Part shown: positions 4,374 to 58,026 of the stretch, piece by piece
Layout: every line of letters starts with the position of its first letter
Position numbering within the stretch: the stretch's first letter is position 1
Assembly (NCBI GenBank): GCA_009782385.1
Contig: WRJE01000003.1
Coordinates: forward strand, 1,711-65,710
Origin: Oscillospiraceae bacterium
Lineage (GTDB): Bacteria; Bacillota; Clostridia; Oscillospirales; UBA929
Length of the DNA: 64,000 nt
Reading direction: 5' to 3'
Program-made: the position numbers and the translations under genes
Notes under the pieces: generated by a model
What the model was told of the DNA's origin: nothing
Databases searched by the model: none
What the model saw: the letters and a program-made list of their open reading frames with translations, nothing else

Positions 4374-4385
4374 GGAGAATAAAAA

Positions 4386-13344: not shown

Positions 13345-14418
13345 TTACGCGGTTTTGCCTTTCATTTGGTAGACATATGCCAATATTTCGGCAACGGCGG
13401 CAAACATTTCCTCGGGAATTGAATCGCCGACATCAACGGCTGTATACAGAGCCTGCGCGATGGGCTTGTTTTCCACTAAGGGTATGCCGTGTTCCGCCGC
13501 TTTCCTTTTAATATTCTGGGCAACTATGTCCTTGCCCTTTGCAAGCACGACCGGAGTTTCCATTTCCTTATCTCTATACTCCAGAGCAACGGCATAATGA
13601 GTGGGGTTCGTGATGACGACATCGGCCTTTGGGATTGCCGCCATCATGCGCCGCTGTGACATTTCGCGCTGTTTCTGCTTGATGGCTTGCTTGATTTTCG
13701 GGTCGCCCTCAATCATTTTATACTCGTCTTTAATCTCCTGCTTTGACATTTTAAGGTTTTTTTCAAATTCCCACCACTGGTAGAGATAGTCAAACAGTCC
13801 AAGAGCAACGAGCGCGAGACACGCCTTAAACGCAACGCCAATGCACATATCAAATATTGCTTTTCCCGCGTCAGGGAGGTCAAGAGCCATGAAGTTAGCG
13901 AACATCGGCATACTTTTTCTATACTCAAGGTACACAACAAATCCGACAATGCCTATTTTCAACAGGGATTTCAAGAGTTCGACTATCGAACGCATAGAGA
14001 AGATACGCTTAAAGCCGCTTAGGGGACTTATGCGGTTAAACTGAGGTTTAATCGATTCGGGCGCGAAGAGAAAACCGACTTGCGCGAGATTGACGGCAAT
14101 GCCTGCCGCGAAAGCGACAACCAACAGCGGCCACGCAATCTTTATAATAGAGGTAAAGCCGCCGATTACAAGGTTGTGCATTCGCATTTCGTCCATGTTG
14201 TGAACGCCTTCTATAATAGTTGTTGTCAGCCCGTTTTCTATCAGTTCCGCCATGGTTTTCACGATATAGCCGGACATCGCGAAAATAATCGCGAACAGGG
14301 ACAGCACCATCACGGCGGTGTTAATCTCCGCGCTTTTCAGCACCTGACCTTTTTTGCGCGAATCCTCGCGCTTCTTAGGCGTTGCTTTTTCGGTCTTTTC
14401 CTGTGCGCCTGCCGGCAA
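13345..14418 (-). CDS. flhB: Flagellar biosynthesis protein FlhB (export gate, substrate specificity switch)
   Basis: EKTEKATPKKREDSRKKGQV at the N-terminus, four TM segments, and the NPTH autocleavage motif (VVITNPTHYAVAL). Confidence 0.9.
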   Translation of the reverse strand: MPAGAQEKTEKATPKKREDSRKKGQVLKSAEINTAVMVLSLFAIIFAMSGYIVKTMAELIENGLTTTIIEGVHNMDEMRMHNLVIGGFTSIIKIAWPLLVVAFAAGIAVNLAQVGFLFAPESIKPQFNRISPLSGFKRIFSMRSIVELLKSLLKIGIVGFVVYLEYRKSMPMFANFMALDLPDAGKAIFDMCIGVAFKACLALVALGLFDYLYQWWEFEKNLKMSKQEIKDEYKMIEGDPKIKQAIKQKQREMSQRRMMAAIPKADVVITNPTHYAVALEYRDKEMETPVVLAKGKDIVAQNIKRKAAEHGIPLVENKPIAQALYTAVDVGDSIPEEMFAAVAEILAYVYQMKGKTA

Positions 14419-14431
14419 AATGAATCACCCC

Positions 14432-14616
14432 TTACAATTAACAGATAACAATGAACAATGAACAATTATAATGAGCAATGAACAATTACCGCATAAAACA
14501 TAACAGATAATCATAGTTTTGTCAATCACAAACGACCGTTGTCCATTGTTTGTTTACAATTACATTGTTAATTAACCAATTATAATTGTTAATTGTTATC
14601 TGTTAATTGTTAATTG
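14432..14616. repeat. AT-rich palindromic element (about 40-bp inverted arms around about 100 bp) filling the fliR-flhB gap
   Basis: The left arm TTACAATTAACAGATAACAATGAACAAT... (from 14432) is the reverse complement of the right arm ...ATTGTTAATTGTTATCTGTTAATTGTTAATTGA (to 14616). There is also an internal 20-bp tandem: AATGAACAATGAACAATTAT / AATGAGCAATGAACAATTAC (14450-14489). Confidence 0.8.
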
Positions 14617-14617
14617 A

Positions 14618-15400
14618 TCATCCCGGCTGCATAACCGGAAGGATGGTATTTATAAATTCATACATCCGCTCGAATATGATGTTTGTAAAGCGGATGAACA
14701 CAGGCAATACAACCCCGAGCATTATTAACCCCAACAGTGTTTTTAAGGGTATGCCTATGACAAAAATGTTCATCTGGGGCGATGTACGCACGACTATGCC
14801 CAGTCCGACCTCCGCCACAAGCGCGGACGCGACAAGGGGTATCGCCACATTGACGGACAAGATAAAGGTCGTGACAAACCCGTTGAGCATTAGCGTTCCG
14901 ATTTCCGGGCGGAAAGCGGCGTGACCTACGGGAATATACTCAAATGTGGCGAACAACAGGCGTATCAGCTTTATATGACCGTTGGAGAGCAGTACGCATA
15001 TGAGCAGGATGGAGTTCATCAGCGTTCCGGCAACGGGCATTTGTGCGTTGGTGGCGACATCGTATATCTGCACCATGCCGAAGCCGATTTGTGTGTCGAT
15101 GATGTTTCCGGCGGTAAAGACAACACTGAAAAACATTGTGGTTACATAACCGATTATCAGACCGATAAGCAGCTCACCGAATATCGTAAAGACGAAGTGC
15201 AGAATTGTCGGCGGCAGTCCGGGCGCGGGCGGGAACATCTGAATGGCTATGAACGCCAGTATAACCGACAGCAGGACTTTTACATACGCGGGTATATTGT
15301 TTCGCCCGAAAATCGGCGACACGATGAACAGCGCGGACATACGCACAACAAACAGGAGAAAATGCACCACCCACTCAACAACATCGCCGGTGATAATCAT
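14618..15400 (-). CDS. fliR: Flagellar biosynthesis protein FliR
   Basis: Polytopic membrane protein downstream of fliQ. The start is placed at the ATG at 15400 (MIITGDVVEW...), giving 260 aa. The ORF-track start at 15433 would overlap fliQ by 37 nt. Confidence 0.85.
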   Translation of the reverse strand: MIITGDVVEWVVHFLLFVVRMSALFIVSPIFGRNNIPAYVKVLLSVILAFIAIQMFPPAPGLPPTILHFVFTIFGELLIGLIIGYVTTMFFSVVFTAGNIIDTQIGFGMVQIYDVATNAQMPVAGTLMNSILLICVLLSNGHIKLIRLLFATFEYIPVGHAAFRPEIGTLMLNGFVTTFILSVNVAIPLVASALVAEVGLGIVVRTSPQMNIFVIGIPLKTLLGLIMLGVVLPVFIRFTNIIFERMYEFINTILPVMQPG

Positions 15401-15678
15401 ATGCCCACACCTCTTGCAACGTTCCCAATCCATTCATATATTTGGAATGTAAAGTCTCTAAGTCTTATAAGCATCCAAGCCCCGAAGATAATAAGCCCGA
15501 TAAAAACGGACAATATCTTTGCCACAAACACGATAGTCTGTTCGTTTACCTGTGTTGTCGCCTGTATGATTGAGATTGTAAGCCCGACAATAAGCCCCAG
15601 TCCGAGCATGGGGAGAGAGAGCCATAAAATTTCAAATATAGCCATACTTATTATGGTTGTGATATTACCTTCGCTCAT
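15397..15678 (-). CDS. fliQ: Flagellar biosynthesis protein FliQ
   Basis: 93 aa with two TM segments and the conserved IIQATTQVNEQT motif. Confidence 0.9.
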   Translation of the reverse strand: MSEGNITTIISMAIFEILWLSLPMLGLGLIVGLTISIIQATTQVNEQTIVFVAKILSVFIGLIIFGAWMLIRLRDFTFQIYEWIGNVARGVGI

Positions 15679-15686
15679 AAAAACAC

Positions 15687-16517
15687 CTATCCGGTATTAA
15701 ATAGATTAAACAGGGTTCTAACCGTCAGATTCCAGCCGTCAACCAAAACGAACAGCATTATCTTGAACGGCAGGGATATCATGACAGGCGGGAGCATCAT
15801 CATACCCATTGACATGAGCGCGGACGCGACAACCATGTCGATGACGATAAACGGAATATATATCATAAAGCCGATGATAAACCCGGTCTTTATTTCACTT
15901 ATAATAAACGCGGGGATAAGTACGTGCGTGGGTATATCATCGAGACCATCGGGCCTGTCCAGTCCGGCAATCCCCATCATGTTAACCAAATCCTCCATAT
16001 TTTGCATAGCACCTATCTGTCTGAACATGAACCAACGGACGGGACCGATGGTGCGGTCAATCATTTCATCGAGCTGTATTTCCTCGGCGGCATACGGATC
16101 CCAAGCATTGGTTTTTATCTCGTCATAGACGGGGAACATGACAAAAAATGTTAAAAAGAGCGCGAGACCGATCATGACCTGATTCGGCGGCATTTGCTGA
16201 GTACCCATCGCGCTTCGGGTAAACGACAGCACGATGACGATACGGGTAAACGCCGTCACCATTATCAGTATCGAGGGGGCAAGGCTTAAAATTGTCAGCA
16301 GAACAAGGATTTCAACGGTGGTTGTCGCGTCTTCGAGTGTCATGTCGCCGCCGAATAGATTGAAAGGGAAATAGTCTGACAGTCTTGATGCCGTATCGGG
16401 TTCGGTATCTCCGCCGATAGTGACATCAAGCGGCGGAATTTCGGTTGCCAACGCGGTCGGCGCAAAGAGAAGCGCGGCGAAAAGGAACGCGAATATCACT
16501 AACGCGATTTTTTTCAT
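15687..16517 (-). CDS. fliP: Flagellar biosynthesis protein FliP
   Basis: Signal peptide, then FTRIVIVLSFTRSAMGTQQMPPNQV and the rest of the FliP core. Confidence 0.9.
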   Translation of the reverse strand: MKKIALVIFAFLFAALLFAPTALATEIPPLDVTIGGDTEPDTASRLSDYFPFNLFGGDMTLEDATTTVEILVLLTILSLAPSILIMVTAFTRIVIVLSFTRSAMGTQQMPPNQVMIGLALFLTFFVMFPVYDEIKTNAWDPYAAEEIQLDEMIDRTIGPVRWFMFRQIGAMQNMEDLVNMMGIAGLDRPDGLDDIPTHVLIPAFIISEIKTGFIIGFMIYIPFIVIDMVVASALMSMGMMMLPPVMISLPFKIMLFVLVDGWNLTVRTLFNLFNTG

Positions 16518-17401
16518 TTGCGTTCCCCTTTCTTAGAATACCTGTTATTTCTTTTTTCTATTCTGTCAAAAAGCTCGTCCAAATCATCGTTATTCGGCTC
16601 TCTGACAGGCGCGGGACTTACCGCTTTTGCGGGAGCTGCGGGAGCTGACGCTCTCTGCGTGTTGCCCGGCAAATTAGACACGGTGTTTTTGTATAAGGCG
16701 GCCGCGGCGGAGGCGGCGGTTACGGCGGGGGTTTCCGTGTTGCTCATTTGCTTTAAGCTGTCAATAGCCGCTTGATAATCTGGTGTTTTTGTTTGGGGTT
16801 CGGCAACGCTGCTTTCCGGACGCTCCGCGTTCCGCGCTTCGCCGCCGAGGAGTTCCAGTAAACCGTCTTTGTCACCATCGGCTTGGGCGCGGAGCAGCTC
16901 AAGCGCGAAAGATGAAGGCCCTGATTGGGGAGTGTTTTTTACGGGAGGACGAGCCGGAGGAGTATCTTTAGGCAGTAATCCCGCGTTAATTTTCATGTTG
17001 TGGATAAAGCGTTTCCCGAGCGAGCTGTTATCGGGATAATTATCTGAGGGAGACACTACGCGCGGAGCGGTGTCTGCCGGGGCTGTTTCGTTGTCCGCCC
17101 CGTTCAAATCCGCAGGGGACAACTCGCACAAAAAACGAAGCCCGTCCTTTGAGGAAGAGACGGCAATATACCGCCTTCCTATCTGAACGAGCATAATTCC
17201 GGCATCACGGGAGATATAGATACGTTCGAGAACGCGCATATTCTGCGCGCCGCCGATAGTACGCCTTTTAATCCATCGCATCGCCAAAAAACATAACGCG
17301 ACAATCGCCGCAAACGCTAAGAGCCCCCAAATGAGACTGCTGAAATCGTATACGGCGTTGTTAAGTCCGGAAGGCGTTGCGGTCAGCGCAAAGAGAGACA
17401 C
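16514..17401 (-). CDS. fliO: FliO/FliZ-type flagellar export protein with long low-complexity C-terminal extension
   Basis: The N-terminal TM plus RVLERIYISRDAGIMLVQIGRRYIAVS core is FliO-like. About 190 aa of A/P/S-rich tail follow. Position between cheY and fliP fits. Confidence 0.7.
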   Translation of the reverse strand: MSLFALTATPSGLNNAVYDFSSLIWGLLAFAAIVALCFLAMRWIKRRTIGGAQNMRVLERIYISRDAGIMLVQIGRRYIAVSSSKDGLRFLCELSPADLNGADNETAPADTAPRVVSPSDNYPDNSSLGKRFIHNMKINAGLLPKDTPPARPPVKNTPQSGPSSFALELLRAQADGDKDGLLELLGGEARNAERPESSVAEPQTKTPDYQAAIDSLKQMSNTETPAVTAASAAAALYKNTVSNLPGNTQRASAPAAPAKAVSPAPVREPNNDDLDELFDRIEKRNNRYSKKGERK

Positions 17402-17403
17402 GC

Positions 17404-17766
17404 CTATCCCAGCACCTTCTTAACGGCCTCGACCACGCGGTCGGCTTGGAAGGGCTTGACGATAAAGTCTTTCGCTCCGGACTGGATGGCTTCGATAACC
17501 ATTGCCTGCTGACCCATTGCCGAACACATAATGACCTTTGAAGCACCGTTGAACGCCTTAATGCTCTTGAGAGCCTCAATGCCGTTGACCTCAGGCATGG
17601 TGATGTCCATGATTACCAAGTCGGGGGTCAGCTCCTTGTATTTCTCAAGGGCGACCGCGCCGTTCTCGGCCTCACCGCAAACATCAAAGCCGTTCTTTGT
17701 CAGCACTTCTTTGATCATCATCCGCATAAACGCGGCGTCGTCAACAATCAGGATCCTATTACTCAT
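17404..17766 (-). CDS. cheY: Chemotaxis response regulator CheY
   Basis: 120-aa single receiver domain: ILIVDDAAFMR...DITMPEVNGIEAL...AKDFIVKPF. Its position in the fla operon matches Bacillus. Confidence 0.9.
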   Translation of the reverse strand: MSNRILIVDDAAFMRMMIKEVLTKNGFDVCGEAENGAVALEKYKELTPDLVIMDITMPEVNGIEALKSIKAFNGASKVIMCSAMGQQAMVIEAIQSGAKDFIVKPFQADRVVEAVKKVLG

Positions 17767-17787
17767 TATATTATTACCTCCCGGTCT

Positions 17788-19194
17788 CTATTTCGTGAGC
17801 CGTTTTGACGGACTAATTATATCTGTAACGCGCACACCATAGTTGTCATCAATGACAACGACCTCGCCTTTCGCAATCAGCTTTCCGTTAACCACAACAT
17901 CTACGAGTTCGCCTGCCATCTTATCAAGTACGACAATAGTTCCAACGTTAAAATCAAGAATTTCACGGATGTATTTTGAACTCTTGCCCAACTCGACCGA
18001 TACGGAGAGCGGCACATCCATCAGAAGATCCATGTTCTCGCCGCCGGCTGCCAAACCTAAACCGCCTGAATCAAAACTTCCGAAATTAGCCGGGTGTACA
18101 TCCACCAAGGGTTGCGGCGGCGGCGCGTATTGCGGCTGATACTGGGGCGGCGGCGCGTACTGAGGCGGATACTGCGGAGGATATTGGGGCGGATATTGCG
18201 GTGGATATCCGGGGTCAGGATACTGCGGTGGCGGCGGCGCGTATTGCGGCTGCTGGTCGAAGTATCCGGGCGGCGGTGGCGGGGGAGCTTGCTGCTGAGG
18301 CGGCGGCTCTTGATATGCCGGCTGCGGTGGCGGCGGAGGTGGTGGCGGTGGAGGAGCGGCTGCCGCTTGTGGCTGAGGTGGCGGTGCTGCTGCGGGTGCG
18401 CTCTCGGTTATTCCTGCCGCTTCGGCCGCGCCGCCGCTGTGAAGTCTTGATACTTGGTGTTTCGCGAAATCAATAGGCATAACCTGCATGATTTCGCTGT
18501 TGATAAGTCCTTCGACCACCATAGAAAAACTGGTGCAGACGAAAATCTCGTCAATATCTTTATAGACCAGAGCCGCGTCTTCGGAGAGATTGACTTGGAA
18601 AGAGCGGGGGGGCGATATGTCGATGCTAATACCCATCAGCTTGGCAAGGGATGTGCTTGATGAGCCAACCATCTGGTTCATAACCTCGCTGATTGCGGAC
18701 AGGTGCAGTTCGGTCAAGTCGGCCTCGGTGTTTGTGCCGTCGCCGCCCATTAACAGGTCGGTTATTATTTTAACATCAGTTTCGCGTAAAAACAAGATAT
18801 TTGTGCCTTCGAGCCCGATAGTATACTGAACTTCAACGACAACGAAAGGCATGGGGTATTCGGAAGCTATCTGACGCATTGTCGTGAGCTTAACCTTGGG
18901 TGTGGTTATATCTACCTTGTGGCTAAGAAGCGCGAAGAGCGTTGTCGCCGCCGTACCCATGCTGATGTTGCCGATTTCGCCGAGGGTGTCGATTTCCATC
19001 GGGGTCAAAAGTTCGTCCGTGTTCGGAATCGGGGCGATTGGGGCGGATTCGGCGACCGTTTCTTCGGGGGCGATGTCGCTTATATCGGCGGCACTTATAT
19101 CAGCGGCCGGTTCCGCTTCGGGTTCGGAAGCATCGGGTAGAACATCTCCGCTAAGAAGGGCATCGATTTCTGCCTGTGAAAGACCGCTACTCAT
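17788..19194 (-). CDS. fliY: Flagellar motor switch phosphatase FliY (CheC-like + FliN domains) with a ~108-aa proline-rich linker
   Basis: The N-terminal EIDALL peptide, CheC-like segments ([29 protein letters not shown]) and a C-terminal FliN/SpoA domain (VSVELGKS...IVVLDK...[17 protein letters not shown]). Confidence 0.85.
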
Positions 19195-20185
19195 TATCTG
19201 AAACCTCCTCGCGGATTAATTCCGTTATCCTAACGGCGTATCTATTGTCCTTAACACCTATTATACCATGAAACTTGGGTAAATGTCCAACCTTTAATGT
19301 TAACGGCAGGTTAATGTTGTGGTCAAGCTGAATTATATCACCCGCTTGAAGCCCTAAGATGTCACGCACGTTGCTTCCTGTCTCGGTGAAAACGGCGGTT
19401 ACCGGAAGCGGTGTCGTCTGAATCCGTGTCTTAATGTCGTCTGTCTTTGAGGCGTGCCTCCGCGCGTCGCTTGTTGTAAACATAAGTTTTGTGCTTAACT
19501 GCTTCGCTATGGGTTCGAGCGCGAGATGCGGAAGAACAAAATTTATCAAGCCTTCGTTTGAGCCGATTTTTACGTTAATGGTAATTAAGGCTATCGTATC
19601 GGTCATTGAAACAATTTGAGCGAACTGCGGGCTGGTTTCGATACGGTCGAGCATTGTTGTTATGGGAAGTATCTTTGCCCAAGATTCGACAAGCAGCCCG
19701 ATGAACTGGCGTATGATACGTTCTAGGAGAACCAACTCAATTTCTGTGAATGTGCGGCTTATTTCGAGTGAACCCGATTGATTAGAGCCGCCGAGAAGCC
19801 GTGATATCATGACATAAGCGACATCGGGCGCGATGGAGAGCATGGTCGGACCGACAAGCGGCGGCGTTTTGAGGATACCCAGCACAATGGGGGAGGGCAT
19901 CGCGTTAACAAACTCCTGATATTTTACTTCCTCAACGGACACAACGTCCGCCGAACACATGACCCTTAGAGTTCCCGAGAGATATGAGGTGAAAAGTCGG
20001 GCAAATGTATCGTAAATAATATTGAAGGTTTTAATTTGCTCCTTGGAGAATCTGTTCGCCGTGCGGAAATCGTAATCCTTTATTTTCAGCGCGGGGTCTT
20101 CCGCCATGGATTCTGGAGCGACATCACCGGAGCTTAAGGCGTTAAGCAGGGCATCTATTTCACTTTGCGAGAGTACGTCCGCCAA
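19187..20185 (-). CDS. fliM: Flagellar motor switch protein FliM
   Basis: [13 protein letters not shown]-terminal CheY-P binding peptide, the FliM middle domain, and a C-terminal SpoA-like domain. Confidence 0.9.
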
Positions 20186-20219
20186 TGCTTATCCCCCCTT
20201 TTGTAATGTACGGCCTTTC

Positions 20220-20450
20220 TTAACTTTCTATATCCTCAAAGTCTTCCTGTGAGATTACTTGCGGAAGACCCAAGAAAACTTTTTGCTTGAAGGCGACAAT
20301 TTTACTTATAACCTCGTCCACGGAATCCTCTACAACCAATTTCTTCCCTGTTGTAGTTGTCAGGACAGTGTCGGGGGTTTCTTCGAGAAATTCAATAAGG
20401 TCGGGATTGATGTAAAACACCTTTCCGTTTAATCTGGATACGCAGACCAT
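20220..20450 (-). CDS. flbD: Flagellar protein FlbD (SwrD-like)
   Basis: 76 aa from the ATG at 20450 (SD GAAGGGGA): MVCVSRLNGKVFYINPDLIEFLEETPDTVLTTTTGKKLVV.ES..EV. This is the FlbD pattern. The upstream part of the 106-aa ORF is leader sequence. Confidence 0.8.
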   Translation of the reverse strand: MVCVSRLNGKVFYINPDLIEFLEETPDTVLTTTTGKKLVVEDSVDEVISKIVAFKQKVFLGLPQVISQEDFEDIES

Positions 20451-20699
20451 AAAAATCCCCTTCCTTACAGAAAATAGCGCACGTAAATACGCAACCAAAT
20501 CCGGTGTAACAGGCAAGCCGGAAATCCGGCGTATAGCCACACGGACTATTATAACACAAGTTGCACCCGGAATGCCAACAATTTTTTCTAAAATAGACGA
20601 ACTTTTTTTAATTATCGGAAAATGCTTGAAAAAATGAACTTGCGGATATTGAAAAAAACCGCGAAAACACAGGGGTTAGCGGTCATGATGAAGTTTTTC

Positions 20700-20728
20700 T
20701 TGACAACCTCCCTCCTCCGTGCTACAAT
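20700..20728 (+). promoter_or_regulatory. Consensus sigma-A promoter driving the T-box leader
   Basis: TTGACA (20700-20705), a 17-nt spacer, then TACAAT (20723-20728). Confidence 0.7.
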
Positions 20729-20734
20729 AACCCA

Positions 20735-20992
20735 AAGCAATGACGGAGAAAGTAAGGAACACGCGAAAGCCTCAGTGAGCCGGGGACAGTGTGAACCCGG
20801 TGTCGGTAACGTTTCCCGAAACTCACTCCCGAGCCGCGTATCGAAAAGGCTTTGCCCCAGTAGGTTACGACGGAATCCCGCCGTTACAAGGGAACCCCGG
20901 TATCGCGTAAAAGGGTGGTATAGCGAAAGCGAACGCTTTCGTCCCATGCGTAAATGTCCAAAGGGCATATATCGTTTGGGGCGATTTTATTT
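20735..20992 (+). promoter_or_regulatory. T-box riboswitch leader (tRNA-sensing transcription attenuator), specifier probably CUC (Leu)
   Basis: - Stem I elements: AATGACGGAGAAAGTA (GA/AGTA), CAGTGAG and GGACAGTGTGAACC.
- Specifier-loop-like GAAACUCACUCCCGAGCC (20818-).
- T-box core AGGGTGGTATAGCG (20912-20925), matching 12 of 14 positions of AGGGTGGTACCGCG.
- CTTTCGTCCC follows the core.
- Terminator TCGTCCCA (20939-46) / TGGGGCGA (20977-84) plus TTTTATTT. Confidence 0.75.
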
Positions 20993-21016
20993 GCCCCTAT
21001 AAAAGGGAGAACTGCT

Positions 21017-22669
21017 ATGAAAACCGATTTTCTGAACTATACCATCGGCGATTGGATGGATAAAATCGCGTCAGAGTACCCGGACAACGATGCTCTGGTC
21101 TATCCGGAGCGCAAACTGCGCCTGTCGTGGCGGCAGCTTAACGAAAAAGCACGCGAAACAGCCAAGGGACTTATGGCTCTGGGAATCACAAAGGGCGACC
21201 ATGTGGCGGCCTGGGCGCAGAACTACCCCGAATGGGCGTATACCATGTTTGCCTGCTCCAAACTAGGCGCGGTAGTGGTGACCGTCAATACTAACTATAA
21301 AATCTTCGAGCTTGAATATCTCCTGCGCCAATCCGACTCAAAAATGCTGCTGTTCTCAGATGGCGTAAAGGGACTGGAATATACGCCTATTATCAAAGAC
21401 CTGCTGACCGGGCTTGAAACACAAAACCCCGATGAGTTTACATCGGAGCGTCTGCCCTTGCTGCGCCGTGTCATACATTTTTCAAAAAACGGCAGCGCGT
21501 CAGGGCTGAAAGGCACAATCACATTCGATGAAATGTTAAAGGCGGGAGAATCGGTATCCGACTTCGCGTTAGACGACATACAAAAAACCCTTGACCCCCA
21601 TGATGTCGTGTGCATACAGTACACATCCGGCACGACCGGATTCCCCAAGGGCGTTATGCTGTCACACTATAACATCCTCAATAACGGCTATTTTATAGGC
21701 AATAACATGAATTTCACACCCGAGGACAGGCTCTGTATACCCGTACCATTTTTCCACTGCTTCGGGCTTGTGCTGTCAATAATGGCGTGTATTACCCACG
21801 CCACAACCATGGTGCCTGTCGAAGCGTACAGTCCGCTCGTTGTGCTAAACGCGATACAGGCCGAAAAATGTACCGCCGTACACGGCGTTCCAACCATGTT
21901 CATCTTCATGCTCGACCACCCTGATTTCGGGAACTACGATGTAAGCTCTCTTAGGACGGGCATAATGGCGGGTTCGACCTGTCCCGTTGAGTTCATGCGC
22001 CGCGTTATCGACCGGATGAATATGTCCGAGGTCGTCATCGTATTCGGTCAAACCGAGAGCAGTCCGGGTATGACGATGTCCCAAACCGATGACCCGATTG
22101 AAAAGCGCGTTTCAACCGTGGGCAGGCTTCTGCCCCATACCGAGGGCAAGATAGTTGACCCCGAAACGGGGGCAACCCTGCCCCCGAATACCCCCGGCGA
22201 AGTCTGCACACGCGGCTACCTGCTGATGAAAGGTTACTATAAAATGCCCGAGGCGACCGCCGCCGCCATTGACGAAGACGGCTGGCTTCACACGGGCGAC
22301 ATCGGCGTGGTTGACGATGAGGGCTATTACAGCATAACCGGGCGTATAAAAGATATGATAATACGCGGCGGCGAAAACGTCTATCCCCGGGAAATAGAGG
22401 AGCTTATCTACCTGCACTCCGCCGTAAAGGACGTTCAAGTGGTTGGCGTTCCGAGCAAAAAGTTCGGCGAGGAGATTTGCGCGTTCATCATACTCAAAGA
22501 CGGCGAAACGGCGGACGAAACAGATATAAAGGGTTTTGTAGCGGAACGTATGTCCCGCCACAAAATACCGTCATATGTGATGTTCACCGATTCGTTCCCC
22601 ATGAACGCCGCCGGAAAAATCCTAAAATACAAAATGCGCGACACCGCCAAGGAAAAATTGAATCTGTAG
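21017..22669 (+). CDS. AMP-dependent synthetase/ligase (acyl-CoA synthetase family)
   Basis: 550 aa from the ATG at 21017 (SD AAAGGGAGA). AMP-binding motifs are YTSGTTGFPKGVMLSH, GEVCTRGYLLMKGYY, WLHTGDIG and GRIKDMIIRGGENVYPREIE. Confidence 0.85.
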   Translation: MKTDFLNYTIGDWMDKIASEYPDNDALVYPERKLRLSWRQLNEKARETAKGLMALGITKGDHVAAWAQNYPEWAYTMFACSKLGAVVVTVNTNYKIFELEYLLRQSDSKMLLFSDGVKGLEYTPIIKDLLTGLETQNPDEFTSERLPLLRRVIHFSKNGSASGLKGTITFDEMLKAGESVSDFALDDIQKTLDPHDVVCIQYTSGTTGFPKGVMLSHYNILNNGYFIGNNMNFTPEDRLCIPVPFFHCFGLVLSIMACITHATTMVPVEAYSPLVVLNAIQAEKCTAVHGVPTMFIFMLDHPDFGNYDVSSLRTGIMAGSTCPVEFMRRVIDRMNMSEVVIVFGQTESSPGMTMSQTDDPIEKRVSTVGRLLPHTEGKIVDPETGATLPPNTPGEVCTRGYLLMKGYYKMPEATAAAIDEDGWLHTGDIGVVDDEGYYSITGRIKDMIIRGGENVYPREIEELIYLHSAVKDVQVVGVPSKKFGEEICAFIILKDGETADETDIKGFVAERMSRHKIPSYVMFTDSFPMNAAGKILKYKMRDTAKEKLNL

Positions 22670-22705: not shown

Positions 22706-23419
22706 ATGACCTCATTCATTCTAAAATGGATTGCCATAGCAAGTATGCTAATCGACCATATCGGCGCGTCCGGTCTGATACCGACCGATGGTCTGCCATA
22801 CTTTGTATGCCGCTCAATAGGGCGGCTGGCGTTCCCTCTGTTCGCGTTTATGATTGCGGAGGGTTATTTTTATACAAAAAACTACAAAAAGTATATCATG
22901 CGGCTGATAGTGTTCATGGCTATAAGCGAGATTCCGTTTGACCTGTTTCTTCGCGGCAGTTTTCCCGTGTGGGAATCCCAGAGTATATATGTGACCTTCA
23001 CAATAGCACTGGCGGGACTGTACTTCTTCGACCATTTCGCGGCAGCCGGAAAGCGTATGCAATCACTGCTGGCATTGCTGACGGCGGCTTTCGCCGCAGA
23101 GCAGTTAAACGCCGATTATGGGGTATACGGTATACTTATAGTGTTTATCTTCTACTTCTACCGTGACCGTCCGCGCTCTGCGGCGGCATGGTTCTCCGCA
23201 GTGGTGATAGTAAACGCTATTCTCAACGCGGTCAGCGCGATGCCTCTGACCAGAAGTGTCATATTCTCACTGATTAACATTTTCGCGCTGTTCGCGCTCA
23301 TCCCAATACTGCTCTACAACCGCAAAAAAGGCTATTCGTCTTCCAAGTGGCAATATTTCTTCTACGCATTTTACCCTGTTCACTTGATAATATTGTATTT
23401 TCTTGCCGGAATGCGTTAA
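22706..23419 (+). CDS. TraX family membrane protein
   Basis: MTSFILKWIAIASMLIDHIGA... This is the typical TraX N-terminus, and the protein is polytopic. Confidence 0.75.
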   Translation: MTSFILKWIAIASMLIDHIGASGLIPTDGLPYFVCRSIGRLAFPLFAFMIAEGYFYTKNYKKYIMRLIVFMAISEIPFDLFLRGSFPVWESQSIYVTFTIALAGLYFFDHFAAAGKRMQSLLALLTAAFAAEQLNADYGVYGILIVFIFYFYRDRPRSAAAWFSAVVIVNAILNAVSAMPLTRSVIFSLINIFALFALIPILLYNRKKGYSSSKWQYFFYAFYPVHLIILYFLAGMR

Positions 23420-26693: not shown

Positions 26694-28142
26694 CTATAAA
26701 CTCTCACCAAAGTCCGTTTTGAATTTCTCCGCAAGTTTTAACTGCCAATCGGAATCGGGAGCGAGCTTACCAAAGAAGAAGCGCAGTATCTTAGGCTCTT
26801 CCGTGAAGTGAAGCCCCCCGATAAGATGCCGATTCTGATAAAGCCAGTTTATCCTGTCAATGGCAAATTTAACTTGCGAGAGCGTAAACACACGCCTTGG
26901 CAGGGCAAGGCGCACAAGCTCCATATGCGCCATCGGTTCGGTGCCGTCTTTGTTGCGCTGTTCGGAAAGAGTGCCGCGTTCCATGCCGCGTATGCCGCTG
27001 ACAATATATAACGCGGCGGCAAGCGCACCGGCGGGGTATTTTTCTTGGGGGACATGACTTAGTATTTCTCTCGCGTTCAAATGACACCCGAGCCCGCCCG
27101 CGGGAGTAACAACGGGAATGTTCATCGCTGAAAGCTCGTCAACCATATGCTTGATAAACTGCGGAGCTTGTGAAATCATGTCCATATCAAGCGTCTCGTC
27201 AAGCCCGACCGTCAACGCTTCCATCTCACGGACAGACATACCGCCATAGGTCAGAAATCCCTCAAAGAGCGGAACGAGTTCGCGGATTCTTTCCATTAAA
27301 TCCTCACGGTGCAGACAGATACCGCCGCCCCTCGCGCAGCCGAGCTTTCTTGCGGAGAAATATATAATGTCAAATAAAGAGCCTATTTCGCGCATGATTG
27401 TAAGAATAGGCACGTTTTTATACGCTTCATCCCTTGCTTTGATGAAATAGAGGTTGTCGGCGAGAAGACTGGCATCCAGTACGGATATAACGCCGCTTTC
27501 GCGGCAAATATTCGTTATATCCCTGAAGTTTGCCATGGATACGGGCTGACCGCCAACTAAGTTAGTCCCGGACTCGACCCTGACAAACGGAATATCATCT
27601 TTTCTCGCGTTAATTAAATCACGCAATTTTTGCAAGTTCATATTTCCCTTAAACGGATTATCGCTCTTTACAGCCAAGCCCTCGTCTATGATTATTTCCG
27701 CGACCTCCGCGCCGAATCGTGATATATGCGCTTTCGCCGTTGTAAAATGATAATTCATCGGTACTATCATGTTGGGCTTGTTAATGAGAGACTGCGCGAG
27801 CAAGTGTTCGCAGGCCCTGCCCTGATGTGCCGGCAGGAAATATTTCATGCCGAATATCTCTTGCAGCTTTGCTTCAAGACGATAGTAGGTTTCGCTTCCC
27901 GCGTAGCTGTCATCGGCAACCATCATTGCCGCGAGCTGCCTGTCGCTCATGGCGTTTGAGCCGCTGTCGGTAAGCATATCCAAAAAAACATCCCTGTTTT
28001 TTAGGAGAAATGTGTTGTTGCCCGCTTCCGATATTGCCGCCAAACGGTCGTCAATCGGTCTTAGGTTAAGTTTTTGAATAATCTTAACCTTGTGCATTTC
28101 GAGCGGCATATCCGCGCTTCCAAAAAATTTTACCTCTGCCAT
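26694..28142 (-). CDS. Tryptophanase / tyrosine phenol-lyase family PLP enzyme (beta-eliminating lyase)
   Basis: 482 aa. FLDMLTDSGSNAMSD, YAGSETYY and the PLP-lysine region YFSARKLGCARGGG resemble TnaA/TPL. The substrate is not assignable by eye. Confidence 0.75.
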   Translation of the reverse strand: MAEVKFFGSADMPLEMHKVKIIQKLNLRPIDDRLAAISEAGNNTFLLKNRDVFLDMLTDSGSNAMSDRQLAAMMVADDSYAGSETYYRLEAKLQEIFGMKYFLPAHQGRACEHLLAQSLINKPNMIVPMNYHFTTAKAHISRFGAEVAEIIIDEGLAVKSDNPFKGNMNLQKLRDLINARKDDIPFVRVESGTNLVGGQPVSMANFRDITNICRESGVISVLDASLLADNLYFIKARDEAYKNVPILTIMREIGSLFDIIYFSARKLGCARGGGICLHREDLMERIRELVPLFEGFLTYGGMSVREMEALTVGLDETLDMDMISQAPQFIKHMVDELSAMNIPVVTPAGGLGCHLNAREILSHVPQEKYPAGALAAALYIVSGIRGMERGTLSEQRNKDGTEPMAHMELVRLALPRRVFTLSQVKFAIDRINWLYQNRHLIGGLHFTEEPKILRFFFGKLAPDSDWQLKLAEKFKTDFGESL

Positions 28143-30678: not shown

Positions 30679-31203
30679 TTACACCTCTGCTCTAAATACC
30701 GCCGCGACAGTCTTCGCGTCCTCAATTTCACCGCTCCGGCACATCCCGCGCAGCTTATTCAGTGATACATACTCAACGCTCAAAAATTCGTCTTCGTCTG
30801 GGTTTTTCTCCGTCTCAGTCAATCCTTTAGCCAGAAATATGTGTATAATCTCCCCGCAGTATGCGGGTGTGGGATATATTCTGCCCAGTGATACAAAGCT
30901 ATCCGCATTTAATCCGCACTCCTCGGCAAGCTCGCGCCGTCCGCACGCTTCCGGTGATTCGCCAAGCTCCAGTTTCCCGGCGGGCAGTTCCAGCATTTCT
31001 TTGTCCGCGCCGTGACGGAATTGCCGCACAAGCGGCACGTTTCCGTCTTCTGTCAGAGCCAGAACGCAAACGCCGCCGTTATGATGCACAATCTCGCGTT
31101 CCGCGCTCCGACCGTCAGGCAGTTCCACAGTATCCACCGTAATTGTAAAAACCCGCCCCTTATATATCTCGTTACTCTTCATCCTTTGAAAAGAAAATGG
31201 CAT
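30679..31203 (-). CDS. nudF: ADP-ribose pyrophosphatase-type NUDIX hydrolase
   Basis: Nudix box GKLELGESPEACGRRELAEECG. The N-terminal Y.G.VF...D.V.LPDG pattern is typical of NudF. Confidence 0.75.
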   Translation of the reverse strand: MPFSFQRMKSNEIYKGRVFTITVDTVELPDGRSAEREIVHHNGGVCVLALTEDGNVPLVRQFRHGADKEMLELPAGKLELGESPEACGRRELAEECGLNADSFVSLGRIYPTPAYCGEIIHIFLAKGLTETEKNPDEDEFLSVEYVSLNKLRGMCRSGEIEDAKTVAAVFRAEV

Positions 31204-32486
31204 TATTTTATTACCTCAATACCGCCCATGTATTTCCGCAAAACTTCTGGAACAACAACGCTTCCGTCCTTCTGCTGATTTTGCTCGACAAGAGCCGGAA
31301 GTATCCTGCTAGTTGCCAATCCCGAACCGTTCAGCGTGTGCATGAACTCCGTCTTTCCCGCACCCTCGCGCTTAAAGCGCGCCGCGCCGCGCCGCGCCTG
31401 ATAATCACGCGCGTTGGAAACGGATGAGACCTCTTTATATCCGTTCATAGACGGAATCTGTATCTCTATATCATAAGTTCGCGCCATTGACGCGGAGCAA
31501 TCACCTGCGGCGAGTTTGACCGTCCTGAAATGAAATCCAAGAGCTGCTACAAGAGCCTCAGCCTTGCCTACAAGCTCGTCAAAAGCGTTGGAAGAACCTT
31601 CGGGTGTCGTGAACTGAAACATTTCCACTTTATTAAACTGATGTCCGCGCACCATTCCGCGTTCGTCCGAGCCGTATGTCCCCGCTTCGCGGCGGAAACA
31701 CGGTGTATAAGATATATACTTTTTCGGCAGCTCGGCTTCAGTTAAAATTTCTTCACGGTGGAGCGAAGCGAGCGCGGCCTCCGCCGTTGGGAGCATATAG
31801 TGCATTCTGTCATCGGTCGGATTGGAGATTTTATAAACTTCATCAGTAAACTTCGGGAATTGTCCCGCAGTCAATCCGCACTGATACTCAAGCATATGCG
31901 GCACAAATAAAAGCTCGTACCCGTCCGCTAAATGTGTATCGATGAAAAAGTTGAGCAATGCCCATTCCAACCTCGCGCCAAGCCCCCGGTATATCCAAAA
32001 GCCGCTGCCCGCGAGCTTTACACCGCGCTGATAGTCAATAAGTCCGAGCTTTGTGCAAAGGTCGTAATGATTATGCGGCTCGAAGTCAAACTTATGCGGC
32101 TCTCCGTAATAACGCAAAGGCTCGTTGTTTTCTTTGCCGCCGGGAGAGAGGTCATCGTCCGGAGTGTTAGGGAGTTTAAGCATAAGGTCGTTATATTCAT
32201 CCCCGACCGCGCGCAGTTCCGTTTCGGCATCTTTAACCTTATCTTTCAGCGCGTTTAACCGCGCCAAGACTTCGGACGCATCACCGCCGGATTTTTTTAT
32301 CTCCGGGATTTGTTTAGAAACCCTGTTCTGCTCCGCTTTATCGGCTTCGCTCGCGGCGATAATCTCACGGCGGCGCAAGTCCAGTGAAATTATCCGGTCA
32401 ATATCAGCGGAACAGTCCGCGCCTTTTTTTAATAGGCTCTGCTTTATTGTGTCCGGGTTATCGCGTATAAGTTTTATATCAAGCAT
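31203..32486 (-). CDS. serS: Seryl-tRNA synthetase
   Basis: MLDIKLIRDNP... N-terminal coiled coil and class II motifs (FRREAG, GSGLA.SR). Confidence 0.95.
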   Translation of the reverse strand: MLDIKLIRDNPDTIKQSLLKKGADCSADIDRIISLDLRRREIIAASEADKAEQNRVSKQIPEIKKSGGDASEVLARLNALKDKVKDAETELRAVGDEYNDLMLKLPNTPDDDLSPGGKENNEPLRYYGEPHKFDFEPHNHYDLCTKLGLIDYQRGVKLAGSGFWIYRGLGARLEWALLNFFIDTHLADGYELLFVPHMLEYQCGLTAGQFPKFTDEVYKISNPTDDRMHYMLPTAEAALASLHREEILTEAELPKKYISYTPCFRREAGTYGSDERGMVRGHQFNKVEMFQFTTPEGSSNAFDELVGKAEALVAALGFHFRTVKLAAGDCSASMARTYDIEIQIPSMNGYKEVSSVSNARDYQARRGAARFKREGAGKTEFMHTLNGSGLATSRILPALVEQNQQKDGSVVVPEVLRKYMGGIEVIK

Positions 32487-32512
32487 TATTAATCATCTCC
32501 TTGCTGCTTATC

Positions 32513-32983
32513 TTATTCTTCTGCAAGTAATTCCTGAATTAACTTTTGGATTCTCTCCAGTTCTGTGTTTTCGCCTTCATCATTTGGTAAATGGTCTATC
32601 AGCTCATTGTACAAACGTATTAGCTCTGTTAGTTTTTCGCGATAGTAAATTAAGTTGTTATTTATTATCTCTCCAGTGTTGTACAGCTCATTGGTCTTCT
32701 TATTGCCCTCCTCCAACTCAAGTTTCAAGGTGGAAATTGATTCTTCCGCAGCAGCCAACTTGTTTGTTAAGGTTCTGTTGTCGTCCATTAAATTCTCAAC
32801 GGATTGCATAGCGGACAGCGAAACCCTCCGTGACTCCTCAAGTTCCTCCTCCGAACGCTCCATGCGCGATGAGTACAAGTATGACAGCAAGATTATAACC
32901 GCCGCCGCAGAAAACAACGCCACTGAGTAGAAAATTAGAAAAGCACGTTTCTTTCTTGGGGTATGTTCATTTCCCTCGTTCAT
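32513..32983 (-). CDS. Membrane-anchored coiled-coil protein (DUF4446-like, typical neighbour of parB in Clostridia)
   Basis: 156 aa: an N-terminal TM, then heptad-rich E/L/K sequence. It overlaps the parB stop. The family name is from memory of context only. Confidence 0.45.
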   Translation of the reverse strand: MNEGNEHTPRKKRAFLIFYSVALFSAAAVIILLSYLYSSRMERSEEELEESRRVSLSAMQSVENLMDDNRTLTNKLAAAEESISTLKLELEEGNKKTNELYNTGEIINNNLIYYREKLTELIRLYNELIDHLPNDEGENTELERIQKLIQELLAEE

Positions 32984-33840: not shown

Positions 33841-33841
33841 A

Positions 33842-35650: not shown

Positions 35651-35875
35651 TTCTAGCGTGAGACAAAAACGCAAAACACCAACACCGCGAAAGTTCTCAT
35701 TCCAAGGAAGTTCCCCGGACAGAGCGCACATGATGTGCACTATGCTCAGGTTACCAACTGCTCAAAGACAAGGACGTTTTTAGCTGGTAGCAAAGATCGC
35801 ACCACTAAAAGGCAAGCATGAGGACAGGGTCCGCATGACGCGAACGCCGCTTGAAATTTGAGGAGGAGTATAACC

Positions 35876-57936: not shown

Positions 57937-58026
57937 GGAGAAGTACCCAAGTGGTGAAGGGGCTCCCCTGCTAAGGGAGTAGGCTGTTAACGCGGCGCGG
58001 GGGTTCAAATCCCCCCTTCTCCGCCA
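57937..58026 (+). tRNA. tRNA-Ser (anticodon GCU), CCA encoded
   Basis: - Acceptor GGAGAAG / CTTCTCC.
- Anticodon stem CTCCC / GGGAG with loop CT-GCT-AA.
- Long variable arm.
- T-arm GGGGG-TTCAAAT-CCCCC.
- 3' GCCA. Confidence 0.9.

What the first reader, a model, noticed from the sequence alone, without database searches (positions are those of the whole stretch)
20700..22669. T-box (probably Leu-CUC) leader controlling an acyl-CoA synthetase-type AMP ligase rather than an aaRS, biosynthesis or transport gene
**Evidence for a T-box.**
- A perfect TTGACA-17-TACAAT promoter precedes a leader of about 260 nt.
- The leader carries Stem I hallmarks: a GA/AGTA motif, a CAGTGAG AG-bulge-like element, and GGACAGTGTGAACC as the distal loop.
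- The T-box core AGGGTGGTATAGCG is followed by CTTTCGTCCC.
- A mutually exclusive terminator (TCGTCCCA / TGGGGCGA plus TTTTATTT) ends 25 nt before the ATG at 21017.

**Specifier.** I aligned the specifier region GAAACUCACUCCCGAGCC against my memory of the B. subtilis glyQS leader (GAA-GGC-ACUUCGAGCA). That places CUC (Leu, 20822-24) as the specifier. ACU (Thr) is the alternative.

**Why it is unusual.** The controlled gene is a 550-aa AMP-dependent acyl-CoA ligase. To my knowledge this is not a classical T-box target.

**Hypothesis (inference).** The enzyme activates a branched short-chain acid such as isovalerate for reductive carboxylation to leucine. That salvage route is known in rumen and gut anaerobes, so uncharged tRNA-Leu would induce precursor activation.
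Basis: partly seen in the sequence, partly recalled or inferred. Interest (0 to 1): 0.66.

Follow-up and report, generated by a model that had tools for sequence, protein, structure and literature searches.

The report
Leucine-sensing T-box controlling an acyl-CoA ligase
A tRNA-sensing RNA switch specific for leucine sits in front of a fatty-acid-activating enzyme gene, and the same pairing recurs in 32 other loci from anaerobic Clostridia-class bacteria, which marks this uncharacterised enzyme as part of the cell's response to leucine shortage.

Summary
Window 20731-20992 is a complete transcriptional T-box leader. Rfam RF00230 matches it full length at 72.3 bits, below the curated cut-off of 93, but with E=1e-13 across the window. 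It sits behind a TTGACA-17-TACAAT promoter and has mutually exclusive antiterminator and terminator helices. The terminator's T-run ends 24 nt before the ATG of a 550-aa ANL-family ligase.

The specifier is CUC (Leu). Across 33 T-boxes linked to homologous ligases, that position is CUC in 31 and CUG in 2, both leucine codons. All but one of these ligases form a single clade of 65 sampled, from Clostridia-class genomes and metagenomes.

In other genomes the ligase is often adjacent or fused to a xylose-isomerase-like TIM barrel. It is sometimes co-operonic with a LeuA-like synthase, IlvE or leuS. A sister branch in Bacillaceae sits in yng/liu-type leucine-catabolic operons.

This supports, but does not prove, the idea that the enzyme activates a leucine-skeleton acid such as isovalerate.

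Caveats:
- The window's T-box is the most divergent of the set (AGUGA bulge, odd distal loop, AUA in the T-box bulge).
- Its seven nearest relatives have lost the T-box.
- No ferredoxin oxidoreductase gene lies nearby.

The T-box itself is a known kind. The regulated target is unreported in the literature I could search.

The parts
20700..20728 (+). Sigma-70-type promoter: TTGACA, 17-nt spacer, TGcTACAAT
   Evidence: 11 of 12 consensus matches with TG before the -10 hexamer. It is the only promoter-like site in 20400-21200.
20731..20992 (+). T-box leader RNA, from Stem I through the terminator T-run
   Evidence: RF00230 matches 20731-20949 at 72.3 bits, E=1.1e-13 window-wide, model positions 1-219 of 219. 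One search gives the terminator.
20737..20834 (+). Stem I: K-turn, specifier loop, AG bulge (AGUGA 20774-78), distal loop (20785-95)
   Evidence: One search gives the covariance alignment. My own Stem I model R1 scores it 67.5 bits; it is the only one of 33 leaders with AGUGA instead of AGAGA and without the GGUG/GCUG distal-loop motif.
20822..20824 (+). Specifier codon CUC (Leu), followed by A20825 and the basal helix CUCC 20826-29
   Evidence: the aligned position is CUC in 31 and CUG in 2 of 33 ligase-linked T-boxes. The position rule is the one stated in the TBDB paper.
20913..20945 (+). Antiterminator with the T-box bulge UGGUAUA (20916-22); UGGU 20916-19 would pair with the tRNA 3' end ACCA
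   Evidence: minimum-free-energy fold -13.5 kcal/mol, z=-2.75. One search aligns it to the T-box core.
20939..20992 (+). Intrinsic terminator: hairpin 20939-20984 plus T-run 20985-20992; its 5' arm overlaps the antiterminator's 3' strand
   Evidence: -24.4 kcal/mol for the stretch folded, z=-3.34.
21003..21009 (+). Ribosome-binding site AAGGGAG
   Evidence: Read directly from the sequence. It lies 7 nt before the ATG.
21017..22669 (+). 550-aa ANL-superfamily acyl-CoA ligase, YngI/ACSF2-like
   Evidence: AMP-binding 321 bits plus AMP-binding_C; best NCBIfam hit PRK12583 at 757.5 bits, below its cut-off of 832; homologues reach 80% identity, in Oscillospiraceae metagenome-assembled genomes.
22706..23419 (+). 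TraX-family membrane protein, probably co-transcribed
   Evidence: PF05857 at 147.9 bits. It starts 36 nt after the ligase stop with no + strand terminator between. A TraX gene lies downstream of the ligase, directly or 1-2 genes away, in 8 of its 9 closest relatives examined; the ninth contig ends first.

Best explanation
This is a leucine-specific transcriptional T-box attenuator that controls an operon of a YngI-like acyl-CoA ligase and, probably, a TraX-family membrane protein.

**Mechanism, read from sequence and from established T-box biology.**
1. RNA polymerase starts about 6 nt downstream of the -10 element.
2. Stem I presents CUC to the anticodon of tRNA-Leu(GAG).
3. If the tRNA is uncharged, its free ACCA end pairs with UGGU in the bulge. 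This stabilises the antiterminator (20913-45), and transcription reads into the ligase gene.
4. If the tRNA is charged, the terminator (20939-92) forms instead.

The ligase is therefore made when leucyl-tRNA runs short.

**Inferred function.** The ligase converts a free branched carboxylic acid with the leucine carbon skeleton, most likely isovalerate, to its CoA thioester. That lets the cell restore its leucine supply. The route would be reductive carboxylation to 2-ketoisocaproate by a 2-oxoacid:ferredoxin oxidoreductase encoded elsewhere, followed by transamination.

**Confidence by step.**
- A Leu T-box that controls the ligase: about 0.9.
- This particular copy is still fully functional: about 0.7.
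- The substrate is isovalerate and the purpose is leucine supply: about 0.35-0.4.
For: **The T-box**
- RF00230 matches full length, E=1.1e-13.
- The antiterminator and terminator are mutually exclusive.
- A promoter precedes the leader.

**Leu specificity**
- Rfam alignments of seven ligase-linked leaders all place CUC plus a purine just before the basal helix.
- My own Stem I model, run over 169 loci, plus one Rfam-only hit, gives 33 ligase-linked T-boxes: 31 CUC and 2 CUG.
- The flanking triplets vary between leaders.
- The synonymous CUC/CUG change argues that selection acts on Leu identity, not on the sequence as such.
- The bulge reads UGGU, which fits a tRNA with discriminator A73. That tRNA-Leu carries A73 is established knowledge, not tested here.

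**Link to leucine metabolism in other genomes**
- Desulfotruncus alcoholivorax: T-box, ligase, leuS, with no terminator between the ligase and leuS.
- L159, L138 and L131: T-box, LeuA-like synthase, TIM::ligase fusion. IlvE follows in L138 (478 bits, above the equivalog cut-off). Amidohydro_2 follows in L159.
- In the non-T-box branch, at least 9 Bacillaceae-type loci place the ligase between an acyl-CoA dehydrogenase and biotin carboxylase, HMG-CoA lyase and enoyl-CoA hydratase. This is a yng/liu-type leucine/isovalerate catabolic operon.

**Habitat**
- The closest relatives come from Oscillospiraceae metagenome-assembled genomes.
- By general knowledge, not tested here, gut and digester habitats are rich in isovalerate.
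Against: - The Rfam score is below the gathering threshold.
- The window's leader is the outlier of the 33:
  - AGUGA instead of the otherwise invariant AGAGA.
  - A distal loop without the GGUG/GCUG motif.
  - AUA instead of ACC in the T-box bulge.
- All seven nearest relatives (78-80% identical ligases) lack any T-box. Leucine control is therefore dispensable in this lineage, and this copy may be decaying.
- No 2-oxoacid:ferredoxin oxidoreductase, leu or ilv gene was found among the window ORFs I annotated (1.5-41 kb). None recurs next to the ligase in 65 clade loci.
- The isovalerate route does not explain the recurrent partners: the xylose-isomerase-like TIM barrel, Amidohydro_2 and TraX.
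- No biochemically characterised close homologue exists:
  - The best PDB hits cover only the C-terminal two-thirds of the protein, at about 266 bits.
  - The role of YngI is described as unresolved (PMC10988940).
Confidence: 0.55

Rival explanations
1. Leucine sparing for membrane lipids. The ligase makes isovaleryl-CoA, or another branched short acyl-CoA, from external acids. That product primes branched-chain fatty acid synthesis, so scarce leucine need not be degraded for primers. The Leu T-box switches the primer source.
For: - Control is Leu-specific.
- There is a documented precedent in Staphylococcus aureus MbcS, which activates external 2-methylbutyrate and isobutyrate for FabH priming (PMC10026030).
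- The downstream TraX-family protein is a membrane protein from a family named for an acetylase. It could use an acyl-CoA.
Against: - Co-operonic LeuA-like, IlvE and leuS genes in other genomes point to leucine supply rather than lipid priming.
- MbcS is not a close homologue; it is absent from the PDB hits at E<1e-40.
- The lipid composition of these uncultured organisms is unknown.
Confidence: 0.2
2. The ligase belongs to an undescribed CoA-dependent, leucine-related pathway. The other parts would be the xylose-isomerase-like TIM barrel and Amidohydro_2, and in some genomes a divergent LeuA-like synthase. The substrate would not be isovalerate; it could be a hydroxy, keto or dicarboxylic acid intermediate. 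In the window's genome the partners would be encoded elsewhere or replaced.
For: - A TIM barrel (PF01261) is adjacent or fused N-terminally to the ligase in 41 of 167 loci. That is 17 of the 33 T-box loci against 24 of the 134 others.
- Amidohydro_2 follows in L002, L087, L114 and L159.
- The LeuA-like gene scores well below the LeuA equivalog cut-offs, 276 against 532 bits.
- A fusion implies consecutive steps.
Against: - tblastn found no TIM barrel, Amidohydro_2 or LeuA-like gene in the 64-kb window.
- About half of the T-box-linked ligases stand alone.
- The partner families give no clear chemistry: only weak matches to sugar epimerases, and uncharacterised PDB entries.
Confidence: 0.2
3. 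In this genome the T-box is a decaying relic. It still looks like a T-box but no longer binds tRNA productively. The ligase would then be either constitutively terminated or expressed without regard to leucine.
For: - The window's full-length Rfam score is the lowest among the ligase-linked leaders I scanned.
- It has unique substitutions in the tRNA-elbow platform and in the conserved ACC of the bulge.
- All seven nearest relatives have lost the leader entirely.
Against: - The specifier plus purine, the UGGU, both alternative helices, the T-run, the promoter and the ribosome-binding site are all intact.
- A strong terminator without a working antiterminator would silence an otherwise intact, conserved gene.
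Confidence: 0.2
4. The specifier is ACU (Thr), so the switch senses tRNA-Thr.
For: ACU directly follows the GAA of the specifier loop, the register seen in the B. subtilis glyQS leader.
Against: - Here the 3' side of the loop has 8 nt (GAAACUCA). By the standard rule the codon is the triplet just before the loop's last nucleotide, which gives CUC.
- In 32 related leaders the triplet in the ACU register varies freely, while the CUC/CUG column is fixed.
Confidence: 0.02

Closest known systems
Leucine-specific T-box leaders of leuS, ilv-leu and leuA (Bacillus subtilis type; Geobacter leuA T-box, PMC2700814)
   Same: - The architecture matches: Stem I with a specifier loop, a Stem II and IIA/B region, and an antiterminator with a UGGN bulge that competes with an intrinsic terminator.
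- The specifier is the same. The TBDB paper reports CUC in 74% of Leu T-boxes.
   Different: - The controlled gene is an acyl-CoA ligase, not an aaRS, a biosynthetic enzyme or a transporter.
- This copy deviates at the AG bulge, the distal loop and the ACC of the bulge.
- It scores below Rfam's gathering cut-off.
YngI of Bacillus subtilis, human ACSF2 and NCBIfam PRK12583 (fatty acid CoA ligase family)
   Same: - This is the best-scoring family model: 757.5 bits over the full length.
- Homologues at about 51-56% identity sit in yng/liu-type operons with acyl-CoA dehydrogenase, biotin carboxylase, HMG-CoA lyase and enoyl-CoA hydratase.
   Different: - The score is below the family's curated cut-off of 832.
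- The window's protein belongs to a separate Clostridia clade.
- Its context is biosynthetic (Leu T-box), not catabolic.
- The substrate of YngI itself is unresolved.
MbcS, the methylbutyryl-CoA synthetase of Staphylococcus aureus (PMC10026030, PMC11167679)
   Same: It is an AMP-forming ligase that activates external short branched acids to feed a pathway normally supplied from branched-chain amino acids.
   Different: - It is not a close sequence relative.
- It prefers 2-methylbutyrate and isobutyrate, and isovalerate is a poor substrate.
- A T-box is not known to control it.
Reductive carboxylation of isovalerate to leucine in rumen and gut anaerobes (classical labelling work; cited from my own knowledge)
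   Same: - It supplies the physiological logic for the proposed role.
- It takes place in the same kind of habitat.
   Different: - No gene for the activation step has been tied to this family.
- No oxidoreductase gene is linked to the ligase in any locus examined.

Membership tests
T-box leader (Rfam RF00230) | Significant full-length match to the covariance model | tested here: met
   model positions 1-219 of 219, E=6.6e-16 on the leader alone and 1.1e-13 on the whole window.
T-box leader (Rfam RF00230) | Score at or above Rfam's curated gathering threshold (93 bits) | tested here: not met
   72.3 bits. Related ligase leaders score 130.7, 113.4 and 99.6 (above the threshold) and 92.0 and 79.2 (below it).
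T-box leader (Rfam RF00230) | Stem I with a K-turn, a specifier loop that places the codon before the loop's last nucleotide, and an AG bulge plus distal loop platform | tested here: inconclusive
   The K-turn, the specifier loop and CUC+A are present. The platform deviates: AGUGA, and a distal loop that lacks the GGUG/GCUG motif. Both are unique among 33 leaders.
T-box leader (Rfam RF00230) | Conserved T-box sequence forming an antiterminator with a UGGN bulge | tested here: met
   AGGGUGGUAUAGCG matches 12 of 14 consensus positions. The 7-nt bulge UGGUAUA folds as predicted.
T-box leader (Rfam RF00230) | A mutually exclusive intrinsic terminator directly upstream of the regulated gene | tested here: met
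   hairpin 20939-84 plus T-run. It shares 20939-45 with the antiterminator.
T-box leader (Rfam RF00230) | Binding of uncharged cognate tRNA causes read-through | not testable with these tools
   This needs in vitro antitermination or an in vivo reporter.
Leucine-specific T-box | A Leu codon at the specifier position, conserved among orthologous leaders | tested here: met
   31 CUC and 2 CUG among 33 leaders.
ANL superfamily (acyl/aryl-CoA synthetases, adenylation domains, luciferases) | An AMP-binding N-terminal domain plus the C-terminal domain, with the core motifs | tested here: met
   PF00501 at 321.5 bits and PF13193 at 59.2 bits. The alignment of 19 homologues keeps YTSGTTGFPKG, the GRxKD hinge and the C-terminal Lys invariant.
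NCBIfam PRK12583 (YngI-like fatty acid CoA ligase family) | Score at or above the curated cut-off (832 bits) | tested here: not met
   757.5 bits. It is the best-scoring family by far but falls below the cut-off. The tree places the protein in a separate clade.
Isovalerate-CoA ligase (a functional class) | Catalytic preference for isovalerate | not testable with these tools
   The only evidence is context: Leu T-box control and liu/yng-type operons in the sister branch.

The most novel reading that the evidence does not exclude
The Leu T-box flags an unrecognised leucine-supply module of anaerobic Clostridia-class bacteria. Its core is a YngI-like ligase. In many genomes that ligase is fused or adjacent to a xylose-isomerase-like TIM barrel. 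Amidohydro_2, a divergent LeuA-like synthase and IlvE join it in some operons. Together these would form a route into leucine that uses no currently assigned enzymes. It could be the missing genetic basis for assimilating isovalerate into leucine, or a CoA-dependent bypass within leucine biosynthesis.
Probability: 0.25. Interest if true: 0.8.

Novelty: new member of a known kind. Interest (0 to 1): 0.55.

Why it matters
T-box specificity is a reliable guide to gene function, because genes behind a T-box almost always raise the supply of the cognate aminoacyl-tRNA. Here it ties an uncharacterised clade of acyl-CoA ligases, and their TIM barrel partner, to leucine in gut and digester Clostridia.

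Those habitats are rich in isovalerate. Assimilation of branched acids into amino acids has been known there from labelling studies for decades, yet the activation step has never been assigned a gene.

The finding gives concrete candidates that can be expressed and assayed. It also provides one cultured carrier, Desulfotruncus alcoholivorax DSM 16058. Finally, it adds a non-classical target class to the Leu T-box regulon.

Tried and rejected
- **Default Rfam scan.** At the gathering threshold it found no T-box. Only the permissive mode did.
- **Regex for the T-box core.** GGTGGNA upstream of the homologues missed variants such as GAGUGGUA and AAGUGGUA. I replaced it with a covariance model of Stem I.
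  - That model was trained on CUC leaders, so it leans slightly towards them.
  - It still found a Tyr (UAC) T-box in L076, which belongs to a different gene 1.8 kb upstream.
  - A permissive Rfam scan of seven clade loci without model hits found no further T-boxes.
- **Thr (ACU) reading.** Rejected on the comparative alignment.
- **Exact-match look-up of the window's ligase.** Nothing is on record, so the source genome could not be retrieved. It could not be checked for leuABCD or oxidoreductases.
- **TraX as a general partner.** tblastn found it only in the window's own subclade.
- **Other recurrent neighbours.** All-against-all clustering of neighbouring ORFs in 65 clade loci found nothing beyond the TIM barrel, Amidohydro_2, LeuA-like and TraX genes.
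- **Leucine depletion of the enzyme.** Uninformative: 8.2% Leu against a window mean of 9.7% (sd 2.5), and 7.0% in T-box-linked ligases against 7.8% in the other branch.
- **PDB sequence searches.** No close characterised relative turned up for the ligase, the TIM barrel or Amidohydro_2.
- **Literature.**
  - No paper in the held library links a T-box to an acyl-CoA ligase.
  - Two T-box surveys and their supplements mention none.
  - The Vitreschak 2008 and Gutierrez-Preciado 2009 reviews are not held. TBDB itself could not be queried. Prior listing in those sources cannot be excluded.
Full report
**Observation**

A sigma-70-type promoter lies at 20700-20728: TTGACA, 17 nt, TACAAT with a TG extension, 11 of 12 consensus matches.

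Rfam's T-box model RF00230 aligns over its whole length to 20731-20949. E is 6.6e-16 on the leader alone and 1.1e-13 on the whole window. The score is 72.3 bits, below the curated gathering score of 93, which is why the default scan reported only a tRNA.

The alignment places the following elements:
- The K-turn: AUGA at 20740-43.
- AGUA at 20751-54.
- An AG-bulge-like AGUGA at 20774-78.
- The distal loop at 20785-95.
- The 3' side of the specifier loop, GAAACUCA, at 20818-25.
- The basal helix GGAG/CUCC.

Downstream lie a weak Stem II, a IIA/B-like hairpin and the T-box core AGGGUGGUAUAGCG.

Folding gives a canonical antiterminator: GGG/CCC closing a 7-nt bulge UGGUAUA, above an 8-bp helix, -13.5 kcal/mol, z=-2.75. 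It also gives a competing terminator hairpin at 20939-20984, followed by TTTTATTT at 20985-92 (-24.4 kcal/mol for the stretch folded, z=-3.3). The terminator's 5' arm is the antiterminator's 3' strand.

The coding start is the ATG at 21017, behind an AAGGGAG ribosome-binding site. The product is a 550-aa ANL-family ligase.

**Specifier**

By the standard rule, restated in the TBDB paper, the codon is the triplet just 5' of the last nucleotide of the specifier loop. Here that is CUC at 20822-24, followed by A. I tested this by comparison with other genomes.

Sampling and scanning:
1. Homologues of the ligase were collected from one genome per species and from metagenomes, and from contigs encoding the closest proteins. 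This gave 169 loci.
2. Rfam alignments of six further ligase-linked leaders all show CUC plus a purine at the same place.
3. A covariance model of Stem I built from ten such leaders was run over all loci.

Results:
- The model run, plus one Rfam-only hit, gave 33 ligase-linked T-boxes including the window's.
- In the model alignment the specifier column is CUC in 31 and CUG in 2.
- The preceding triplet varies freely, which excludes the Thr (ACU) reading.
- The two CUG cases argue for selection on leucine identity.
- The only non-Leu hit, UAC in L076, lies 1.8 kb upstream in front of a different gene.
- Every T-box core whose sequence I read carries UGGU in the bulge.

**Distribution**

A neighbour-joining tree of the ligase sequences puts all but one of the T-box-linked ligases in a single clade of 65 loci. 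They come from Clostridia-class genomes and metagenomes: Oscillospiraceae, Acutalibacteraceae, Christensenellaceae, Dehalobacter and others. About half of that clade (32 loci) have the leader. A permissive Rfam scan of seven members without a model hit found none.

The exception outside the clade is Desulfotruncus alcoholivorax (L027), which has the best-scoring leader at 130.7 bits.

The link is therefore old, recurrent and patchy. In the window's own subclade:
- The ligases at 72% and 66% identity (L085, L086) have canonical Leu T-boxes.
- All seven relatives at 78-80% identity have none. Their ligase gene follows a short promoter region or abuts an upstream gene.

**State of this copy**

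Among the 33 leaders the window's is the outlier:
- It alone has AGUGA where the others have AGAGA.
- Its distal loop (GACAGUGUGAA) lacks the GGUG/GCUG motif shared by the rest.
- The conserved ACC of the T-box bulge reads AUA.

These positions build the platform that docks the tRNA elbow and the pocket that receives the tRNA 3' end (established structural knowledge). They account for the low bit score. Everything needed for the switch logic is intact, but with the losses in the nearest relatives, reduced or lost tRNA response in this genome is a real possibility. I put it at about 0.2-0.3.

**The enzyme and its partners**

The ligase has both ANL domains and the invariant core motifs. Its best family model is NCBIfam PRK12583, the YngI/ACSF2-like family: 757.5 bits against a cut-off of 832. 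No solved structure is close.

In the non-T-box branch of the family, at least nine Bacillaceae-type loci place the gene between an acyl-CoA dehydrogenase and biotin carboxylase, HMG-CoA lyase and enoyl-CoA hydratase. That is a yng/liu-type leucine/isovalerate catabolic operon. The substrate of YngI itself is unresolved in the literature.

Inside the T-box clade the ligase shows these arrangements:
- It is adjacent to, or fused at its N-terminus with, a xylose-isomerase-like TIM barrel (PF01261) in 41 of 167 loci. That is 17 of the 33 T-box loci.
- An Amidohydro_2 gene follows in several loci.
- In L159, L138 and L131 the order is Leu T-box, a divergent LeuA-like synthase, then the TIM::ligase fusion.
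  - In L138 a true IlvE follows.
  - In L159, Amidohydro_2 and a Cys/Met-type PLP enzyme follow.
- In Desulfotruncus the order is T-box, ligase, leuS, with no terminator between the last two.

In the window itself the only likely co-transcribed gene is a TraX-family membrane protein. It starts 36 nt downstream with no terminator between. That pairing is kept in the window's subclade only.

The rest of the window gives no metabolic clue. It holds:
- Flagellar genes.
- An alpha/beta hydrolase, a NUDIX protein, a tryptophanase and a two-component system.
- SerS, ParAB and YidC/Jag.

**Mechanism**

*Shown by sequence and comparison:* a Leu-tRNA-sensing transcription attenuator controls the ligase.

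*Inferred:* the enzyme helps restore leucine. The simplest reading combines three facts:
- The enzyme is induced by leucine shortage.
- The enzyme activates a carboxylic acid.
- A sister branch of the family sits in isovalerate/leucine catabolism.

Together these suggest activation of isovalerate, or another acid with the leucine skeleton, to its CoA ester.

*Rivals:*
- Supply of isovaleryl-CoA as a primer for branched-chain fatty acids. S. aureus MbcS sets a precedent for this.
- A still-unknown CoA-dependent pathway that also uses the TIM barrel and Amidohydro_2.

*Against the simple reading:* no ferredoxin oxidoreductase is ever linked to the ligase, and the conserved partners are unexplained.

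**Novelty**

The T-box is an ordinary member of a well-known class. The target is unusual. Two published T-box surveys with their supplements and five targeted full-text searches show no acyl-CoA ligase under T-box control. I could not read the 2008-2009 reviews or query TBDB.

The value lies in the functional prediction. It covers a widespread but uncharacterised ligase clade and its fused partner, and it offers a candidate gene for the long-known but genetically unassigned assimilation of isovalerate into leucine by gut and rumen anaerobes.

Noticed in passing
L027:3793-3868 (Desulfotruncus alcoholivorax DSM 16058, NZ_KE387267.1): A complete tRNA-Ala(GGC) gene is nested inside the Leu T-box leader. 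It has G3:U70 and an encoded CCA, and it sits as an insertion of about 80 nt in the Stem III loop, between Stem IIA/B and the antiterminator. Rfam's tmRNA model also hits it weakly.
   Followed up: partly
L054:327-2999, L119:1026-3536, L079:3131-5665, and about 20 further loci: Proteins of about 830-890 aa fuse an N-terminal xylose-isomerase-like TIM barrel (PF01261) to the YngI-like ligase. In other loci the two are separate adjacent genes. The TIM barrel has no characterised close relative.
   Followed up: partly
L159:484-6763 and L138:461-5731 (metagenome contigs): Leu(CUC) T-box operons that carry a short, divergent LeuA-like synthase followed by the TIM::ligase fusion. In L159, Amidohydro_2 and a Cys/Met-type PLP enzyme follow. 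In L138, a genuine IlvE follows. The arrangement looks like a compact, undescribed leucine-related pathway.
   Followed up: partly
L114:145-5692: A T-box with CUC, here followed by C rather than a purine, precedes four genes in order: a DAHP-synthase-family gene, a GNAT acetyltransferase, the TIM::ligase fusion and Amidohydro_2. A different carbon-carbon bond-forming enzyme occupies the position the LeuA-like gene holds elsewhere.
   Followed up: no
L081:5290-5560: In the closest relative (ligase 80% identical), a GC-rich stretch occupies the position where the window has its T-box. It carries repeated ...CCGTAGGG[GC]CG... units and inverted repeats. A TTGACA-type promoter right at the gene follows.
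   Followed up: no
window 22706-23419; L081, L082-84, L085, L167-168: A TraX-family membrane protein lies downstream of the ligase in this subclade only. In some members its start overlaps the ligase stop. In others an unannotated gene of about 188 aa, or in L085 a BipA GTPase gene plus a 189-aa gene, lies between the two. Its function next to a ligase is unexplained.
   Followed up: partly
window 3360-5489, 31203-34600, 13345-20540, 35858-36973: The window carries markers typical of the replication-origin region (YidC, Jag/KhpB, ParA, ParB, SerS). It also carries a long minus-strand flagellar gene block (FlhB, FliR, FliY, FliM, FlbD) and a flagellin gene. The host is therefore a motile bacterium.
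   Followed up: no
window 26694-28142 (-): A tryptophanase-family beta-eliminating lyase (NCBIfam PRK13238, 567 bits) lies 4 kb downstream of the ligase, in a block that is absent from the syntenic region of L081 and L082.
   Followed up: no
window 57937-58026 (+): The window's only tRNA gene is tRNA-Ser(GCU). No tRNA-Leu is present, so pairing with the T-box could not be checked.
   Followed up: yes
L070:3706-3850 (-); L016:797-974 (-); L041:8689-8883 (-): Other RNA elements lie near ligase homologues. An FMN riboswitch on the opposite strand sits just upstream of the L070 ligase. 6S RNA genes occur in L016 and L041.
   Followed up: no
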